Source: a virus
Lineage: Duplodnaviria; Heunggongvirae; Uroviricota; Caudoviricetes
IMG/VR virus record: IMGVR_UViG_3300031853_000004
Coordinates: 1-37,318 of that record
Reading direction: 5' to 3' (one strand)
Length of the DNA: 37,318 nucleotides
Shown here: positions 14,292 to 36,374 of the stretch, piece after piece
Layout: the number at the start of each line of letters is the position of its first letter
Position numbering within the stretch: position 1 is the stretch's first letter
Translations under genes and position numbers: made by a program
The notes under the pieces: model-generated
Told to the model about the DNA's origin: nothing
What the model saw: the letters and a program-made list of their open reading frames with translations, nothing else
Database searches by the model: none

Positions 14292-14798
14292 TTAAATATA
14301 AATATAATCTCCAACACTAAATTTATTATATTGTTGCTTTGTTATTTCATATTTTACTTCATTACTAACAATATAATATCGTTCTTCTCTCTTAGAAACT
14401 CTCACATCTCCAATAGAAGGATAACTTCTATTTAATTCACTAGTATGAATTTCAGGCCAAAATTCTATATCTCCTTTGCTGCCACTTGATGTGTAAAACT
14501 CACTAGGAAGCCATTCATTTACACTATAGGAATACCAATAATCATATTCTGTATGATTTTGATAAACGTTTTTAGGCTTTTTAGTTTTTGTAATTAAATT
14601 AGCATTAAAAGGAATATCCTCTTCCCAACACTCCTTAACAACTAATTCATATTTTTCAGTGTATACGTCTTTAGTCCATAACATTTCATCTATTTTAACA
14701 TTTTTAGACATTAAAACAAAGGAATAGAATGTAATTGCTGCAACAACAACTAGAGAAGAAATTATTTGCAAAACACTATATATCTTAAATCTGTTCAT
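14292..14798 (-). CDS. Hypothetical protein with N-terminal TM anchor
   Basis: Track ORF 14292..14834; likely start MNRFKI. Confidence 0.65.
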   Translation of the reverse strand: MNRFKIYSVLQIISSLVVVAAITFYSFVLMSKNVKIDEMLWTKDVYTEKYELVVKECWEEDIPFNANLITKTKKPKNVYQNHTEYDYWYSYSVNEWLPSEFYTSSGSKGDIEFWPEIHTSELNRSYPSIGDVRVSKREERYYIVSNEVKYEITKQQYNKFSVGDYIYI

Positions 14799-15939
14799 TT
14801 TTAATAAAACCTTTCCCCACCTTACTGATTCCAAACTTCTTAATCAATTGCATTACAGTCATATCAGGATTATCTACAGCCATAAAACCAAAAGCCTTAA
14901 ACTTATCATCCTTAATTTTTAATGCAAACTCCTTGCGGGAACCGCATGAAGGATAAACATTACGAACATAATTGACATATATCTCAAGTTCATATAGAAA
15001 TTTAGTTACTTGCCAATCATAATACTTAAACTGAACCTTCAGACGTGGATAAGAAAGAAGAGCCATAATCTTTTCTTCATCATTAAGAATAATAGCTTCT
15101 ACAACATCATCCTTGGAGACAGAATCCTTGGTAAGTGAATGATGAAGCATTAAATATTCAGGATTCTTTACTTTAATTCGATGATAGTCAGAATCACAAA
15201 CTACAAATCCTTCATGCTCACATACTCCATTATTTAAATGTTTAGCTTCCTCTATAACTTTTTCCAGATTTGGATCAGCAATATTATAAATATGCGGCTT
15301 TTCAATTCCAATGAAGTTATTAAATTCTACTCCTGTAAGATTAGAACGAGTTCCAAGATGATAAAGATGAGTCTTATCATATTCAACTACTACACGAGTC
15401 TCAGGAGAAACTAATTCAAAAATATAAGTATTATATTTATCAAGAATATCATAATTAATGCTACCAAAATTATCAGCAGATTCAATCACATCCTGAAAAG
15501 TGCGGCCGATCAGAGGAGTATTTGCATCACAAGCATCAATGCATCCATTAGTAGCCCAATGCCATTGACCATTGTAACGATACAGCTTCAGGATCGATCC
15601 ATCTATTTTAGCCTGAACCTGTGCAGTGTTCCAATTAATGTCATCTGCATAAGACTCGCCCCAGTTTCCAAATTTTCTAAAAGGCCAGCACACTACGCGC
15701 CAATCTGAAATCTTGGACACATCCTCCGCACCCATGTCCATAATTATACCGCGAGCTTCCTGCACAACAGGATTAGAAAAGTCCGCACCAATAGTATAGT
15801 TAAAAATAATACGATTATCTTTAGTCTTACACTTAATATCAATCTTTTCCATTAACTCTTTAACCTCTTGGACAGAAACCTCTCCCTCAAGATGTTTAAG
15901 AATATATGAAATAATCTTTGAATTAAAATTAATAGGCAT
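14785..15939 (-). CDS. T4 Rnl1-like RNA ligase
   Basis: CWPFRKFGNWGE, KIDGS (motif I), FELVSP, EGFVV and IKVKNPEY motifs; likely start MPINF after AAGGAG. Confidence 0.85.
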   Translation of the reverse strand: MPINFNSKIISYILKHLEGEVSVQEVKELMEKIDIKCKTKDNRIIFNYTIGADFSNPVVQEARGIIMDMGAEDVSKISDWRVVCWPFRKFGNWGESYADDINWNTAQVQAKIDGSILKLYRYNGQWHWATNGCIDACDANTPLIGRTFQDVIESADNFGSINYDILDKYNTYIFELVSPETRVVVEYDKTHLYHLGTRSNLTGVEFNNFIGIEKPHIYNIADPNLEKVIEEAKHLNNGVCEHEGFVVCDSDYHRIKVKNPEYLMLHHSLTKDSVSKDDVVEAIILNDEEKIMALLSYPRLKVQFKYYDWQVTKFLYELEIYVNYVRNVYPSCGSRKEFALKIKDDKFKAFGFMAVDNPDMTVMQLIKKFGISKVGKGFIKNEQI

Positions 15940-15949
15940 AAAAACTCCT

Positions 15950-16957
15950 TTAATGCGCTTGACGGTCAGCTTCTCCAAGCAATTCTAAACAATACAAATC
16001 ATAATTATTAAATAATTTCTTTTCACGTTTAGCGCACTTACCATCAGGATACTGGCGCCAAGTAAAACTAACCCGCATATGAAAATTAACATAAGTTGCC
16101 ATTTTTACAAAAACTTCTTCAGTAATATACGTTTCTATATCGTAAGAAGATAAAAAAGGAAATTCTGAAAGAATTAAATAGGCTCCAGCATTCTCATGCC
16201 CATAATAATGAGCAGTTTCAGTAGGACGTCCTTTTCTATCATGATAATCTTTAGTGATCAATTTGCCAATATCATGATATTTAGCAGCTTCAAATAAAGG
16301 CTTACATCCCCAAAAATCGTTTTCTGGTACAGAAGGATTATAATGCTTAACAACATATTTGTAAGTATTTTGCATATGCTGCCCAAGAGTCATGGTATGA
16401 AATGGATTATCTTGATTAAAAGAATCAAGTATATCAAAATTAACAGATGCATATTCTTTTTTAATCCAAAAACTTCCTGCTTTTATTGTGCAATAAGCTT
16501 CTTTATTAGGATAAAAATAATAAATCCCATCAAATCCTTCTTTTTCAAGAGGAATCTGAAAACTTCTTACCATGTTATCAATTACTTTTTCAGGCACACA
16601 ACCAAACTCATCACGACGAGAATTCTGCTCTTTACAAAGCTTAATAGGAACTATAATCACATCAGCTTCATAAAAAACATTAGGAAACTTAGCACGTAGT
16701 TCAGTAAGTAAATTCATACGAAACTTTCTTTGAATATTAGTTGCGTTAAATACAACATTTTTTCCAAGAGAAAGAGAATCTATAATCATATCGTGAGCAA
16801 TTTGAAAAACATCTTCTTTAGTACCTTGCTTATATCCATTATCCTTGCGGATTTGGTCAGTAGAAACTATTACATGATTTTTAAAGCTATCATCATGCTC
16901 TATAAAATAATCTTTGCCACTTCCAGGCAAACCAATCATCATTACGAATTCTTGCAT
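15950..16957 (-). CDS. Polynucleotide-kinase-like P-loop (AAA_33) fused to HD phosphohydrolase
   Basis: GLPGSGKD, STDQIR and NATN in the N-terminal half; HTMTLGQH, YHDIGK and GHEN in the HD domain. Confidence 0.88.
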   Translation of the reverse strand: MQEFVMMIGLPGSGKDYFIEHDDSFKNHVIVSTDQIRKDNGYKQGTKEDVFQIAHDMIIDSLSLGKNVVFNATNIQRKFRMNLLTELRAKFPNVFYEADVIIVPIKLCKEQNSRRDEFGCVPEKVIDNMVRSFQIPLEKEGFDGIYYFYPNKEAYCTIKAGSFWIKKEYASVNFDILDSFNQDNPFHTMTLGQHMQNTYKYVVKHYNPSVPENDFWGCKPLFEAAKYHDIGKLITKDYHDRKGRPTETAHYYGHENAGAYLILSEFPFLSSYDIETYITEEVFVKMATYVNFHMRVSFTWRQYPDGKCAKREKKLFNNYDLYCLELLGEADRQAH

Positions 16958-17053
16958 ATTTTCTCCCTTCAATCTATATATATTATACCATATATAGAAG
17001 AAGTTGTCAATAAAAAAATACCTAAAACCTCAAAAAGATTTTAGGTATTTTAC

Positions 17054-25600: not shown

Positions 25601-25694
25601 AATTTTTCCCCTTTCTCTTTTAAAAATTTATATAAAAATTCTTCTTGGTTTAACAAAAAAGGCTCCCATAAAGGAAGCCTTGAAAGTTCGGTAC

Positions 25695-25973: not shown

Positions 25974-26051
25974 TGATCGCGCGACGCATGAATCGAACAT
26001 ACCTACTCTTATGCTTATGAGACATAATTGGACACCAGCCCACCGCCCGCA
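25974..26051 (-). tRNA. tRNA with CAU anticodon (Met or Ile2), imperfect acceptor stem
   Basis: Anticodon arm TATGT-CTCATAA-GCATA; T arm GTATG-TTCGATT-CATGC. The acceptor stem needs a bulge and there is no clean CCA. Confidence 0.6.
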
Positions 26052-26058
26052 ATATAAT

Positions 26059-26196
26059 TAAGAGGAAATAATTAGAATAGTGTAAAATACGCGCTCTACC
26101 CTTGAGCTACAAAAACGTACTGTGCTTTTGGCAAGATTCGAACTTGCAATAACGTGTCTCCTAGACATGAAGTAACTATTCTATCCATCACTCTTA
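26059..26196 (-). ncRNA. Y-RNA-like hairpin RNA 1 carrying a circularly permuted tRNA-like domain (YrlA-like topology)
   Basis: End-paired scaffold encloses, in order, T arm GCAAG-TTCGAAT-CTTGC, acceptor 3' strand CAAAAGC, short loop, acceptor 5' strand GTTTTTG and D arm GCTC-AAGGGTA-GAGC. Confidence 0.75.
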
Positions 26197-26390
26197 TTTA
26201 ATTGTTTTCAAAGTCAATCTATATTTCTATCTTGAGGGTCTGAATGGAAATAATAATCTATCCAACCAAAATCATCTTCATACATCATTTCTAGACATCC
26301 CACTGGAACTCAGATATTTTGATCTTCTTCTTCCATCTTTTGGATTTCATTTATAATCATATGAAAATTATTTTTTGAAAATTTTGCCAT
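26181..26390 (-). CDS. Small acidic hypothetical protein, 69 aa, three TGA
   Basis: MAKFSKNNFHMIINEIQKMEEEDQNI*VPVGCLEMMYEDDFGWIDYY...; GAGGG RBS. Confidence 0.4.
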
Positions 26391-26448: not shown

Positions 26449-26544
26449 TGGCAGCCCCGTCCTGTACCGCCCAGGAATAGACGAGTTTGGACCTCGCCAC
26501 ATGGTTTTGAAGACCATCTCGGTTCTTAACCGATAAGCGGGGCT
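26449..26544 (-). tRNA. Opal-decoding tRNA, anticodon UCA, long variable arm (suppressor / Sec-like)
   Basis: Acceptor AGCCCCG/CGGGGCT + G + CCA; D stem TCGGTT/AACCGA; anticodon arm ATGGT-CTTCAAA-ACCAT (anticodon 26508-26510); variable arm GGCGAG/CTCGTC; T arm TCCTG-GGCGGTA-CAGGA. Confidence 0.88.
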
Positions 26545-26546
26545 AG

Positions 26547-27290
26547 TTATATTTTCATCCATTCTTCAAAAGAATATTTTTCAATATCCCTCCTTAATTT
26601 AGGTAATTTATAAGCTACACACCATTTTTTAATAGTCGTATCTGAAACATTAAAACGCTTACCTAATTCAACAAAAGAATTATTATAAACCATTTCTTTA
26701 AAACTTTCTCGGTCAGGTCTTTCCACAGTTCTTTGAAGAAAAGAAACACACTCAGGACAATGAACACTTGTTAATTTAATTTCTTTTCCACATCTTTTAC
26801 AATAATTTTTCTTTTTTGGTTTTTGATTATGTTTTTTATTCTTACTTCCAAAAGTATCTAACTGTCTATCACAATTAGGACATACCCATCTTAAATTTTC
26901 TAATCTATTATCGTTATGAACACCATTTATGTGATCTAAAGTTAAAGTTAATTCTTTATTATTTCAAAAAGGTTCCTGTCCACAAATAGAACATTTATAA
27001 TTATTCTTTGTAGTAAAATCATCTTTAAAATGTTTTCTAATATAACCCGATGAAGCGTTTGAATCTTTGCAGAATGAATTTTCAAAAGTTCTTTCTTCTT
27101 TATTTGAAGGTATTATTGTGAAATGACTATAATCTATATCGTAATTATCTAACCTTGTTTTTATAACTTTTGAAACATTCCCTGTTAAAGATTGATAACC
27201 TAAATTTTTCGCTAATTGTATAAAATTTGTAGACTTTTTAACTCAATCTTCTAATTCTTCTTTTGAAAAATTATCAACTCTTGCTACCAT
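26547..27290 (-). CDS. HNH homing endonuclease with zinc fingers and C-terminal HTH, 247 aa (needs TGA=Trp)
   Basis: Absent from track. CSICGQEPF*NNKELTLTLDHINGVHNDNRLENLRWVCPNCD; TGA at 27243 and 26964. Confidence 0.9.
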
Positions 27291-27552: not shown

Positions 27553-27582
27553 TTTTATTTATTCTTTAAAAAGAGACTATTA

Positions 27583-28218
27583 AAAAGTTTCTTGCGACCT
27601 TCGCCGTACTCTTTTATTGTGTGTTAATTTTCAGTCACGTAGGAGATAAAAGTGAGCCATACGGAGCGACCGCATAACTTTTTACCCCAGTCTAAAGCTA
27701 TAAAATACACAGGTGTATTTTATATTCTCCATTGAAGGATAACTTTATTACCAAATCTACGCCAGGATTGATTACAAACTGGAACTTTCACCCATCATTC
27801 ACAAAATAATATCATATCTTCAAATGATCTTCCGTATGCCATTTTACCGCAGGCTTCGCGTTTTTTCATTCCAGCTTTGGGCTACTTGTACATTGACCTC
27901 GTCTTATTGATATATTACTATATCTTAACTGGAAACTCTCTTATTGGTATTTCCAACGTTCCTGCTTTGGGCACCACCCCGCACAGACGTTTGGATTCAA
28001 ATCCCGCTGGGACGCCTATTATGAGAGCGACGAGACACTACCTTTTAATCGCACAATAATCGAGCGCTACCTACATTTCGTTGAAATCATTTAATTTCTT
28101 CTTACTATTGGATTACTCCAACAATAAAAGCCAACCATCTAAAGTATCCCATAGATTTCGACTTACTGAGTAGATACGCATGACCGCATGATATTGCGAA
28201 TACACATGCTTCAAAAAC
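27583..28218 (-). ncRNA. Large structured ncRNA of about 630 nt, ROOL-like
   Basis: No long minus-strand ORF, higher GC and many hairpins. 5' TTGAAG..CAATATCATGCGGT..GTAAGTCG, central AAGTAGCCCAAAG and 3' GGTCGCTCC..GGCTCA..GAGTACGGCGAAGGT resemble ROOL as I recall it. Size and tRNA-cluster location fit. Needs a covariance-model search. Confidence 0.62.
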
Positions 28219-28250
28219 TTTTTAATATTCTCTTTTCAAAGAATATTTAA

Positions 28251-28329
28251 GATAAGAGAAATACTAAAGAAAGAAAAATCCTACACCGTAACCTATGAAT
28301 TGAAGTATCTTTCTTTCAATCATCTTATC
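28251..28329 (-). ncRNA. Y-RNA-like hairpin RNA 2 (minimal)
   Basis: GATAAGA-TGATTG-AAAGAAAGA-TACTTCA ... TTCTTTCTTT-AGTA-TTTC-TCTTATC. Confidence 0.7.
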
Positions 28330-28369: not shown

Positions 28370-28498
28370 TTTAGAAAGGAAATACTAGAAATAGTACAAT
28401 ACGCTTCTGCTCGTGAAGTGAAGGAAGTGAGCTTTAATTTAAATATTTTTTAAATACTTTTATCATTTGAAGTAACTATTTCTCAATCACTTTCTAAA
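28370..28498 (-). ncRNA. Y-RNA-like hairpin RNA 3
   Basis: TTTAGAAAG-TGATTG-AGAAATAGT-TACTTCA ... ACTATTTCT-AGTA-TTTC-CTTTCTAAA; starts just downstream of a consensus promoter. Confidence 0.75.
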
Positions 28499-28502
28499 TA
28501 AT

Positions 28503-28531
28503 ATTATAATATATTATTTTAATTTTGTCAA
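28503..28531 (-). promoter_or_regulatory. Consensus sigma70 promoter driving hairpin RNA 3 and downstream RNAs
   Basis: TTGACA (28526-28531), 17 nt, TATAAT (28503-28508). Confidence 0.85.
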
Positions 28532-29110: not shown

Positions 29111-29217
29111 ATGCGGAAATATTTAAAATAGTTGTTACTGTTAGAATCGAACTAACTTTATTTGATTAAGAGTCAAAGGCTTTCCATAAGCGAAGTAACT
29201 ATTTTACCATCACGCAT
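29111..29217 (-). ncRNA. Y-RNA-like hairpin RNA 4 carrying a tRNA-Lys(CUU)-like cloverleaf
   Basis: ATGCG-TGATGG-TAAAATAGT-TACTTC, D-like GCTT-ATGGA-AAGC, anticodon arm TTTGA-CTCTTAA-TCAAA, T arm GTTAG-TTCGATT-CTAAC, then AGTAACA-ACTATTTTA-AATA-TTTC-CGCAT. Confidence 0.78.
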
Positions 29218-29234: not shown

Positions 29235-29335
29235 GAAAAGGAAACAATAAAGATAGTATATTTTACGAATAGCAGGTTTTGGCGCTATTTTCTTTTAAAA
29301 TAATCCTTGAAATAACTATCTTTCCATCACTTTTC
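29235..29335 (-). ncRNA. Y-RNA-like hairpin RNA 5
   Basis: GAAAAG-TGATGG-AAAGATAGT-TATTTCA ... ACTATCTTT-ATTG-TTTC-CTTTTC. Confidence 0.72.
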
Positions 29336-34922: not shown

Positions 34923-36374
34923 TTAACCGAAGCTAATGTTATTTATAAGATTGACAATGTTCTCTTTTCCATTTACTAAATCAATATATTTAAATATTGA
35001 ATCATTTAAAGAAGTTAAGAACATAAAATTATCAGATGGAGGTTCGATCTGACCATCATAATTTGCTAAATCAAAACTGTATGTCATGATATTGCCATAT
35101 CTTTTATTCCAATTATAAATTGAATCAGTTCTAGATCCGGCATAATAGCTATTATAATTAGTCCAAAAAATTTGCATATCACTTATAACAAAAATTCTAT
35201 CATAAGTATCTTTCATTATTTCAATTGCAGATTGTATGTTAGTACCCCATCCACAATTACTATTACTACACATAGCATCAATGATACTAAAAGGATTATT
35301 TAATCTAGAAAAATTATTAAATCTTTTAGCGTCGGTACCAAATTTAATAAAATCTATATTTGAACCATTTAAGAATAACGCAGTCGCGAAACAAGCTCCA
35401 ATTTCTTTTAAAGTTATATTACTATTTGAACTAATATAATTTTCCATAGAACCAGATACATCAAGTACAATAGCATTAATACCATCAAATTTAGGGATAT
35501 TATAAGTTGCAATTCCAAAAGCTCTTCCAAGAGCCTCCTCAATTAAAAGATTATTAATCTTTAAATTTTTATGTGCAGTATAAATTCGATATGGAAAAAC
35601 TAATGATTTACGAATTTTATTTTCATTAATAAGTTGAGGATAAAGATATTCCCCAATCCATTCATTGTCAATATTTGGATTATCAAGAATATTATTTAAA
35701 TTGCGGAGAAGCGCCATGTATCCAAGTTTACCTTCTTCAACCATTTCCTTCCAGGTTGCTTGACGTGATTCCTTAGACTGTTTCTTTGCAACACTAACCT
35801 CCCAAGTATCTGGAGCTTTAAGAAGGTTATTCTTAAAATCATTAATAACTTTTGAATTTGCATGTGTAAGATTAATTAAATCATACATATTATACGTATG
35901 ACCAATCATTTTATATTTAGTAATTTCATACTGTCCAAGAGAAGAAAGATAATTAGCAGAACCTTTAATTAAAGCATGAGATCTCTTTCCATCAAGATAT
36001 TTAACAGCACCAAAGATTTCTGAAACATCATCAGGACGCCGCATAAAACTACGATAAAATTCTCTTTTCTCTTGGAAAGATTTATCATTAAGCCATGCGG
36101 CGATTAGTTGTGAGACAGACCGCATTCCAAGTTCATTACGAGCAAAAATTGCGGCTTTGCCTACAAATGCATAATCATATTGGTCAGCAACAGCTTCTGT
36201 CAGATTTAAAAGTCTATCAATTTGATCTGAAGACTTTTCGTAATATTGATTTTCTAAGAAAGATGAAAAAAGCATATTAAACCAAGCTTCTACAGTATTT
36301 CTTTTATAAAGGATAGTTCCTTCATATGATTGCACTCGTTCTTGAACTTTCTTTTCATTAAACTTTGCCATCAC
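34923..36374 (-). CDS. rsr: Ro60 / TROVE-vWA RNA-binding protein (Rsr-like)
   Basis: TROVE features (FLENQYYE, AIFARNELGMRS, RRPDD, ITKY, LTH, PDTWE, GYMALLRNL, PYR) followed by a vWA MIDAS LDVSGSM, T and FVISDMQ. Confidence 0.9.
   Translation of the reverse strand: MMAKFNEKKVQERVQSYEGTILYKRNTVEAWFNMLFSSFLENQYYEKSSDQIDRLLNLTEAVADQYDYAFVGKAAIFARNELGMRSVSQLIAAWLNDKSFQEKREFYRSFMRRPDDVSEIFGAVKYLDGKRSHALIKGSANYLSSLGQYEITKYKMIGHTYNMYDLINLTHANSKVINDFKNNLLKAPDTWEVSVAKKQSKESRQATWKEMVEEGKLGYMALLRNLNNILDNPNIDNEWIGEYLYPQLINENKIRKSLVFPYRIYTAHKNLKINNLLIEEALGRAFGIATYNIPKFDGINAIVLDVSGSMENYISSNSNITLKEIGACFATALFLNGSNIDFIKFGTDAKRFNNFSRLNNPFSIIDAMCSNSNCGWGTNIQSAIEIMKDTYDRIFVISDMQIFWTNYNSYYAGSRTDSIYNWNKRYGNIMTYSFDLANYDGQIEPPSDNFMFLTSLNDSIFKYIDLVNGKENIVNLINNISFG

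What the first reader, a model, noticed from the sequence alone, without database searches (positions are those of the whole stretch)
26059..26196. Circularly permuted tRNA mimic in hairpin RNA 1
Seen: the tRNA 3' half (T arm, acceptor strand CAAAAGC) precedes the 5' half (GTTTTTG, D arm GCTC/GAGC). The acceptor end is closed by a 7-nt loop and the conserved scaffold stem takes the place of the anticodon arm. Established: this is the topology described for YrlA Y RNAs. It is the best single evidence that the hairpin family are Y RNAs.
Basis: partly seen in the sequence, partly recalled or inferred. Interest (0 to 1): 0.75.

Follow-up and report, generated by a model that had tools for sequence, protein, structure and literature searches.

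The report
Phage Y RNA, whole permuted tRNA
This phage small RNA is a complete tRNA shape with its ends rotated and a handle, probably for the phage's Ro60 ring protein, grafted into the anticodon stem; it is a known kind of tRNA mimic (YrlA), but the data show that such RNAs often keep the anticodon arm that the papers I could read say they lack.

Summary
The element is real (minus strand, 26059-26196). T arm, 7-bp acceptor stem with 7-nt loop and D arm are as described. Rfam YrlA matches below its cut-off (37.4 of 69 bits). About 150 distinct relatives covary in the acceptor stem and Levitt pair. The phage encodes a Ro60/Rsr-fold protein 8.7 kb upstream, and 15 of 18 phage records with this RNA encode TROVE.

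The anticodon stem is split at tRNA position 28/29. Pairs 27:43 and 28:42 use the strand after the D arm; pairs 29:41 to 31:39 and a 7-nt loop lie 5' of the T arm. Rejoined in silico, the query is a flawless 72-nt cloverleaf (triplet AGG). The layout also occurs in canonical bacterial YrlAs, whose hairpin was published as a variable arm. The triplet drifts freely, so decoding is unlikely. The published Rsr-binding motif is absent; a GUGAUGG...UAGUUACUUC handle stands in its place.

Verdict: new variant of YrlA; expression, binding and processing untested. This scan has noted the same family and the 28/29 split on other phages.

The parts
26059..26196 (-). Y RNA (YrlA type): complete circularly permuted cloverleaf on a Ro60-type handle; ends inferred from the terminal stem
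26168..26196 (-). 5' strand of the handle (GUGAUGG stem with bulge) plus unpaired UACUUCA linker; presumed Rsr-binding strand
   Evidence: shared by the other hairpins of this genome; ACUUC in 118 of 150 relatives, partly imposed by the search pattern
26153..26167 (-). tRNA positions 29-43: distal anticodon stem 29-31/39-41, 7-nt loop 26164-26158 with triplet AGG (26162-26160), and 42-43
26148..26152 (-). 5-nt class I variable region (44-48); U48 faces A15 as the Levitt pair
26131..26147 (-). T arm (49-65)
26110..26130 (-). 7-bp acceptor stem (66-72, then 1-7) capped by a 7-nt loop that starts A73-C74-A75
26090..26109 (-). U8-A9, D arm (10-25), G26, and C27-G28, which pair back with G43-C42 to complete the anticodon stem
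26059..26089 (-). 3' linker and 3' strand of the handle
34923..36374 (-). Ro60/Rsr homolog (TROVE + vWA, 483 aa; DxSxS and KYK...D...H invariant or nearly so in 120 homologs)
28503..28531 (-). Perfect sigma-70-type promoter, likely start of the polycistronic RNA (hairpins, ROOL, tRNAs, this RNA)
   Evidence: consensus match only
25659..25681 (-). Intrinsic terminator-like site closing the cluster
   Evidence: consensus match only
25977..26049 (-). tRNA-Met(CAU) starting 10 nt after the Y RNA; its 5' maturation could create the Y RNA's 3' end
   Evidence: processing is inference
29111..29217 (-). Paralog on the same handle carrying D, anticodon (CUU) and T arms in normal order (called tRNA-Lys by ARAGORN)
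29235..29335 (-). Paralog on the same handle without tRNA arms
28370..28495 (-). Paralog on the same handle without tRNA arms
28251..28329 (-). Short paralog with a variant handle
   Evidence: motif and closing strand; not folded separately

Best explanation
The element is a phage-encoded YrlA-type Y RNA. Shown by sequence comparison: it is a complete tRNA cloverleaf opened between positions 28 and 29. Residues 29-73 come first, a loop caps the acceptor end, residues 1-28 follow, and the two free ends extend into a long handle that makes a three-way junction in the anticodon stem. The L-shaped core is under selection. Inferred: it is transcribed with the ROOL/tRNA cluster and released by processing of its neighbours; the handle binds the outer face of the phage's Rsr ring, which stabilises the RNA; the stable tRNA-shaped head is displayed to a host RNA-handling factor. 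By analogy with Salmonella YrlA and phage phiLo the most likely partner is host PNPase, forming a RYPER-like particle that redirects or dampens host RNA decay during infection (about 0.45 for this last step alone). The anticodon loop is an inherited structural element whose triplet is not read. The 7-bp acceptor may be nicked by RNase P and gain CCA, as in M. smegmatis YrlA, but this cannot be general in the family. The confidence given is for 'Rsr-partner, non-decoding tRNA mimic with a split anticodon arm'.
For: Rfam YrlA E = 8e-5 over the full model. Levitt 15:48: 23 A-U, 23 G-C, 0 mixed in 46 homologs; MI 0.77 in 150; 15 of 15 double changes compensatory in independent sister pairs. Split stem: 27:43 and 28:42 with the post-D strand are 87% Watson-Crick, MI 0.94 and 1.22 (shuffle max 0.14); the alternative pairing with the 5' strand gives MI 0.05-0.07. 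29:41, 30:40 and 31:39 give MI 0.95-1.18 in the 70 members with a Y32-U33-R37 loop. Sister pairs: 27/36, 41/45, 6/6, 10/10 and 10/11 double changes stay Watson-Crick. A 5/5 anticodon stem is most frequent when joined after 28 (70 of 150, against 13-43 for other joins), and the rejoined query is called a tRNA by ARAGORN at default settings. G46 in 142/150 and U47 in 128/150 mark a normal short variable region. Rsr: Pfam TROVE 2e-14, phiRo60 1e-22, model pLDDT 84.5 matching Ro60/Rsr structures. TROVE in 15 of 18 viral records (11 of 14 after removing near-duplicates by eye) against 85 of 50,697 cultured-phage records matching this Rsr (a different and less sensitive test). In 15 of 45 short loci the gene lies within the DNA held, always on the same strand. 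Literature: PMC4201824, 10.1101/312249, PMC12135203.
Against: GNCGAAN0-1G is absent in the query (3 mismatches) and exact in only 9-10 of 150 relatives; single changes in CGAA weaken phiRo60 binding 3-4-fold (PMC12135203). The score is far below Rfam's gathering cut-off, and no relative tested reached it. Rsr lies 8.7 kb away, beyond the 4 kb typical in PMC4201824. Nearest-neighbour energy slightly prefers a fold without 27:43/28:42 (-33.9 against -31.0 kcal/mol) and with the loop zipped by C32-G38 and U33-A37. Only 53 of 150 relatives have the complete arm. One 95%-complete phage with the RNA had no TROVE hit. No expression, binding or probing data.
Confidence: 0.8

Rival explanations
1. Decoy for host anti-phage anticodon nucleases or other tRNA-attacking factors: the RNA (still Rsr-bound) exposes a tRNA-like anticodon loop that absorbs cleavage, and the phage's Pnk/Rnl1 repairs it. 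Compatible with the main reading; it differs in which end does the work.
For: Loop architecture is kept (U33 changes in 0 of 19 close pairs, A38 in 1) while the triplet changes often (5-8 of 19 per position). U36 is enriched (37/54 against 731/1919 real tRNAs, p = 1e-5; not corrected for kinship). A paralog displays a Lys(CUU) arm. Rnl1-like and kinase genes lie at 14785-16972.
Against: In the query the loop can zip (C32-G38, U33-A37), and AGG is not a usual bacterial anticodon (own knowledge). About two thirds of relatives lack a complete arm. Free drift also fits neutrality.
Confidence: 0.2
2. Cofactor of RNA repair: the Rsr-Y RNA particle delivers damaged tRNAs to the phage's own ligase/kinase, as proposed for the bacterial rsr-yrlBA-rtcBA operon.
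For: Rnl1-like ligase and polynucleotide-kinase-like genes in the window; the proposal is cited in 10.1101/312249.
Against: The ligase genes are about 9 kb from the RNA and 18 kb from Rsr; in related loci Rsr is linked to tRNA arrays, and I did not test linkage to ligases.
Confidence: 0.12
3. A true permuted tRNA gene: the handle is excised at 28/29, the ends are ligated, the acceptor loop is opened and a working tRNA results, as in algal and archaeal permuted tRNAs.
For: Rejoining gives a flawless 72-nt cloverleaf; 7-bp acceptor; CCA at 74-76 in 15 of 150 relatives; the phage has an RNA ligase; 10.1101/312249 raises the possibility.
Against: The triplet varies between otherwise identical sisters (TCT, TGT, TAT, GAT, TGA). 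A34 triplets are over-represented (7/54 against 76/1919, p = 0.006). The acceptor here starts G1-C72, not the C1-G72 of bacterial tRNA-Pro (own knowledge). 45 of 150 acceptor loops are 4 nt or shorter. The query has A46. No splicing endonuclease is known in bacteria (10.1101/312249).
Confidence: 0.04
4. Chance juxtaposition of the 3' half of one decayed tRNA gene and the 5' half of the next in a tRNA array.
For: It sits in a tRNA cluster; true tandem tRNAs also give partial YrlA hits (genome 142312-142372; controls ring in 6 of 14 genomes at E 1e-4).
Against: Cross-half covariation of the acceptor, Levitt and 27:43/28:42 pairs, the enclosing handle, and conservation in about 150 sequences. This may describe the origin, not the present state.
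Confidence: 0.01

Closest known systems
YrlA Y RNA (Rfam RF02553; Chen et al. 2014 PMC4201824; structure 6CU1, Wang et al. 10.1101/312249)
   Same: T-acceptor-D order, capped acceptor, Levitt covariation, YUAY after the handle, terminal stem, encoded with Rsr on the same strand; already reported from 22 phages.
   Different: GNCGAAN0-1G replaced by a GUGAUGG...UAGUUACUUC handle; below the Rfam cut-off; Rsr 8.7 kb away. The hairpin published as a long variable arm is the distal anticodon arm in exact tRNA register, whereas Salmonella YrlA lacks the anticodon loop.
Mycobacterium smegmatis YrlA (PMC4201824)
   Same: [quoted passage not shown]
   Different: Cleavage untested here; the acceptor is weak (four U-A, one G-U) and is rewritten between close sister phages (L147, L179).
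Thermus phage phiLo Ro60 with Yrl1/Yrl2 (PMC12135203; PDB 9KOP, 9L5Y)
   Same: Phage-encoded Ro60 ring; closest solved relative of this Rsr (E = 1e-22; Foldseek 1e-16); binds phage Y-like RNAs and host PNPase.
   Different: Yrl1/2 were chosen by a CGAA motif and no tRNA-like domain or anticodon is discussed. Of the phiRo60 RNA contacts R137, K141, K142 and R178, only K142 aligns to a basic residue here.
Circularly permuted tRNA genes of red/green algae and Thermofilum (as summarised in 10.1101/312249)
   Same: All cloverleaf positions present, 3' half before 5' half, acceptor closed by a loop.
   Different: Those are spliced and matured into working tRNAs; here the break carries a conserved handle and the triplet is unconstrained.
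Deinococcus radiodurans Yrn1 (PMC4201824)
   Same: Its D-anticodon-T order on the Ro stem matches the paralog at 29111-29217.
   Different: Yrn1 and YrlA were judged separate lineages; here both topologies sit on one handle in one genome.

Membership tests
YrlA | T stem-loop 5' of D stem-loop with an acceptor-like hairpin between them | tested here: met
YrlA | Conserved tertiary-core residues: T loop, D-loop GG, U8-A9, compensated Levitt pair | tested here: met
   A15-U48 in the query; 142/150 A-U or G-C. T-loop and U8-A9 letters were partly imposed by the search patterns; the Levitt pair was not.
YrlA | Long stem formed by the 5' and 3' ends | tested here: met
   pair probabilities 0.65-1.0
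YrlA | 5' motif GNCGAAN0-1G (presumed Rsr site) | tested here: not met
   3 mismatches in the query; exact in 9-10 of 150 relatives, some of which also carry the UACUUC linker
YrlA | YUAY following the Rsr module | tested here: met
   UUAC at 26176-26173
YrlA | Rfam RF02553 gathering score of 69 bits | tested here: not met
   37.4 bits; no YrlA hit at the cut-off in 16 related loci
YrlA | Rsr gene on the same strand, nearly always within 4 kb | tested here: inconclusive
   same strand but 8.7 kb here; within about 2.5 kb in 14 related loci; TROVE in 15 of 18 records
Y RNA (functional definition) | Expressed and bound by Ro60/Rsr | not testable with these tools
YrlA | Psi55 and dihydrouridine modification | not testable with these tools
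   U55 and D-loop U are present in sequence only
Ro60/Rsr (partner protein) | TROVE ring plus vWA domain with MIDAS DxSxS | tested here: met
Permuted tRNA gene (functional) | Complete cloverleaf after rejoining | tested here: met
Permuted tRNA gene (functional) | Conserved anticodon consistent with acceptor identity | tested here: not met
   free triplet drift and excess A34; G1-C72 with AGG
Permuted tRNA gene (functional) | Excision, ligation and aminoacylation in vivo | not testable with these tools
   no reads available

The most novel reading that the evidence does not exclude
In at least some phages of this family the handle is removed at 28/29 and the phage ligase joins the halves, or the RNase P-opened, CCA-tailed form enters tRNA pathways with its handle on. 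That would be the first bacterial-type permuted tRNA maturation, with Ro60 as chaperone. A milder form: the fast-changing anticodon loops are baits against host anticodon nucleases.
Probability: 0.06. Interest if true: 0.9.

Novelty: new variant of a known kind. Interest (0 to 1): 0.5.

Why it matters
The function and origin of YrlA's tRNA-like domain are open questions. The covariation shows that many YrlAs, phage and bacterial, are whole cloverleaves broken at one fixed bond (28/29). This revises the published 'long variable arm, no anticodon loop' picture as a general description. It fits the proposed origin from tandem tRNA genes (residual CCA at 74-76 in 10%), and it gives exact junctions and mutations to test. 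It also defines a large phage branch that Rfam misses, with a different candidate Ro60-binding handle carrying interchangeable tRNA parts. The class itself (YrlA beside phage Ro60) has been known since 2014, and no new function is shown.

Tried and rejected
The search for related loci with the Rsr protein found nothing; relatives came from DNA patterns instead. Single-sequence AlphaFold of Rsr failed (pLDDT 33); the alignment-based model was used. RF02553 scans of bacterial groups were insensitive (22 candidates scored per genome) and gave only a handful of canonical YrlAs, so the statement about bacterial members rests on about 8 loci. The reviews of Sim and Wolin 2018, Sim et al. 2020 and Boccitto and Wolin 2019, and the supplements of Chen 2014, are not held; the anticodon-arm reading may be stated there. 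My first model, a self-contained 5-bp anticodon hairpin 5' of the T arm, was rejected because 27':43 and 28':42 show no covariation. ARAGORN calls on rejoined sequences do not discriminate join points (137, 132 and 129 of 150) and are not used to place the break. A degenerate version of GNCGAAN0-1G can be aligned by eye, but mismatch counts are close to shuffles except for exact matches, so I do not count it as met. No complex prediction was run, since the tool does not score RNA partners.

Full report
Context. The window is the first 37 kb of a 143.5-kb phage record. The element lies on the minus strand in a cluster with a ROOL RNA (27575-28233, 284 bits) and several tRNAs, between a perfect sigma-70-type promoter (28531-28503) and a terminator-like site (25681-25659). 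tRNA-Met starts 10 nt after its 3' end. Close relatives of the RNA occur on contigs binned with a Bacillota MAG; the host is not established.

Observation. Every quoted element is present at the stated place. Rfam YrlA matches over its whole length at 37.4 bits, E = 8e-5, below the gathering score of 69. A structural scan finds this architecture once in the genome and never in 60 shuffled genomes. Because true tandem tRNAs can mimic the order T arm then D arm (second hit), I tested whether the two halves evolve together.

Family. Pattern scans of viral, metagenome and genome contigs, filtered by structure, gave first 46 and then 181 distinct sequences, 150 after dereplication at 85%. In the first set the acceptor stem averages 6.6 of 7 pairs with unrelated sequences, against 3.3 for swapped strands. 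The Levitt pair, which no search pattern imposed, is 23 A15-U48, 23 G15-C48 and never mixed. In 90 independent sister pairs all 15 double changes at 15:48 are compensatory. The L-shaped core is therefore under selection. The filters did require T, D and at least 5 acceptor pairs, so pairing levels there are partly selected; the diversity of pair types is not.

Correction of the topology. The segment 5' of the T arm, which Chen et al. call the V arm (PMC4201824) and Wang et al. compare with class II variable arms (10.1101/312249), is in exact tRNA register an anticodon loop. Y32-U33-N3-R37 occurs in 29 of 46 (shuffles: mean 3.5, max 10) and is followed by a normal 5-nt variable region. Its stem is built from two strands. 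Positions 43 and 42 pair with the second and third bases after the D stem (MI 0.94 and 1.22; 27/36 and 41/45 double changes compensatory). Positions 41-39 pair with the three bases before the loop (MI 0.95-1.18 in the 70 loop-bearing members; 6/6, 10/10 and 10/11). The alternative registers show little or no signal, though post-D 29:41 has a weak one (MI 0.35) that fits members lacking the hairpin. A full 5-bp stem is most often obtained by joining after position 28 (70 of 150). In the query all five pairs are Watson-Crick, and the rejoined 72 nt are called tRNA-Pro(agg) by ARAGORN at default settings. The handle is thus an extra arm inserted at 28/29, not a substitute for the anticodon arm. 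The same layout appears in canonical YrlAs: L200 (71.2 bits, above the cut-off, exact GNCGAAN0-1G) has the complete arm; all 10 exact-motif members keep 27:43/28:42 and 5 keep the distal stem. Caveats: 53 of 150 have the complete arm; energy models put the split fold 2.9 kcal/mol above the minimum, without tertiary terms; and in the query the loop can zip via C32-G38 and U33-A37.

Not a decoder. Among 19 close sister pairs the triplet changes at 5-8 pairs per position while U33, G46 and U47 never change. A34 triplets are over-represented relative to 1919 tRNAs called in the same loci (7/54 against 76). Acceptor loops range from 0 to 23 nt, and 45 of 150 are 4 nt or shorter. CCA at 74-76 survives in 15 of 150 (about 2 expected at 1/64). 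This, and the retained anticodon arm, fit the dimeric-tRNA origin cited in 10.1101/312249: positions 29-76 from the first gene and 1-28 from the second (inference).

Partner. ORF 34923-36374 has TROVE and vWA domains. Its closest solved relative is phiLo Ro60, and an alignment-based model (pLDDT 84.5) matches phiRo60, Xenopus and human Ro60 and Deinococcus Rsr. DxSxS, K152-Y153, D164 and H170 are invariant or nearly so in 120 homologs (numbering of P0001); that this helix is the Y-RNA-binding one of Xenopus Ro60 is my own knowledge. TROVE is found in 15 of 18 viral records carrying the RNA, and within the held DNA of 15 of 45 short loci, always on the same strand. Cultured phages of Caulobacter, Xanthomonas, Rhizobium and Streptomyces have permuted modules just upstream of their Rsr genes, several with the same linker. 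The published Rsr motif is absent in the query; a GUGAUGG stem with bulge and a UAGUUACUUC linker is shared instead by five hairpins in this genome, which carry no tRNA arms, arms in normal order, or the permuted cloverleaf.

Mechanism. Shown: structure, conservation, gene linkage. Inferred: co-transcription and release by processing of neighbours; Rsr binding at the handle; display of a stable tRNA-shaped head. From established cases (Salmonella YrlA co-purifies with Rsr and PNPase; phiLo Ro60 and its Yrls bind host PNPase and attenuate it, PMC12135203) a RYPER-like role is the leading guess. Decoy, repair-cofactor and true-tRNA readings are ranked below.

Comparison and verdict. It works like YrlA and shares its tRNA-like core, but fails two formal tests (motif, Rfam cut-off), so I file it as a new variant of the YrlA kind rather than a plain member. 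I found no paper describing the 28/29 split or this handle, but three key reviews could not be read. Earlier AI notes of this scan report the same family and the same split on other phages; I read the notes on the split after and do not count them as evidence. Interest 0.5.

Noticed in passing
window 29111-29217 (-); L179 17230-17350 and 17540-17640; L096, L177, L183: The same handle carries D, anticodon and T arms in normal order (Yrn1-like topology). ARAGORN and Rfam call the window copy tRNA-Lys(CUU), probably wrongly. Both Y RNA topologies on one handle in one genome sit awkwardly with the published view of independent origins.
   Followed up: partly
window 26181-26390 (-): A 69-aa ORF open only with TGA read as Trp (3 TGA) ends inside the first 16 nt of the Y RNA; a similar ORF lies at the same place in L179.
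   Followed up: partly
window 26547-27290 (-): 247-aa ORF with HNH-like and Cys-rich motifs (by eye), open only with TGA = Trp, inserted in the tRNA cluster; not seen at this place in L179.
   Followed up: no
window 26453-26544 (-): Sec-like tRNA with a UCA anticodon (Rfam weak hit here, above cut-off in L179 18849-18938); consistent with TGA recoding.
   Followed up: no
window 27575-28233 (-): ROOL RNA directly downstream of two handle hairpins; the same arrangement is seen in L179 and L004.
   Followed up: partly
window 14785-16972 (-): Rnl1-like RNA ligase and polynucleotide-kinase-like gene pair.
   Followed up: partly
L147 and L179 against window 26110-26130: The acceptor stem is almost wholly rewritten, with pairing kept, between sister phages whose RNAs are otherwise nearly identical.
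   Followed up: partly
L451 5790-5860 (phage phiLo, upstream of its Ro60 gene): A UUUACUUC sequence lies close to one CGAA motif in the region of the published Yrl RNAs; whether it is the same linker was not established.
   Followed up: no
G000 137982 (-), outside the window: An isolated exact copy of the linker motif in a short hairpin far from the cluster; probably not a family member.
   Followed up: partly
L052 / G014 (120.5-kb phage, 95% complete): Carries the permuted RNA with ACCA in the acceptor loop but has no Pfam TROVE hit; either a divergent Rsr or an orphan RNA.
   Followed up: no
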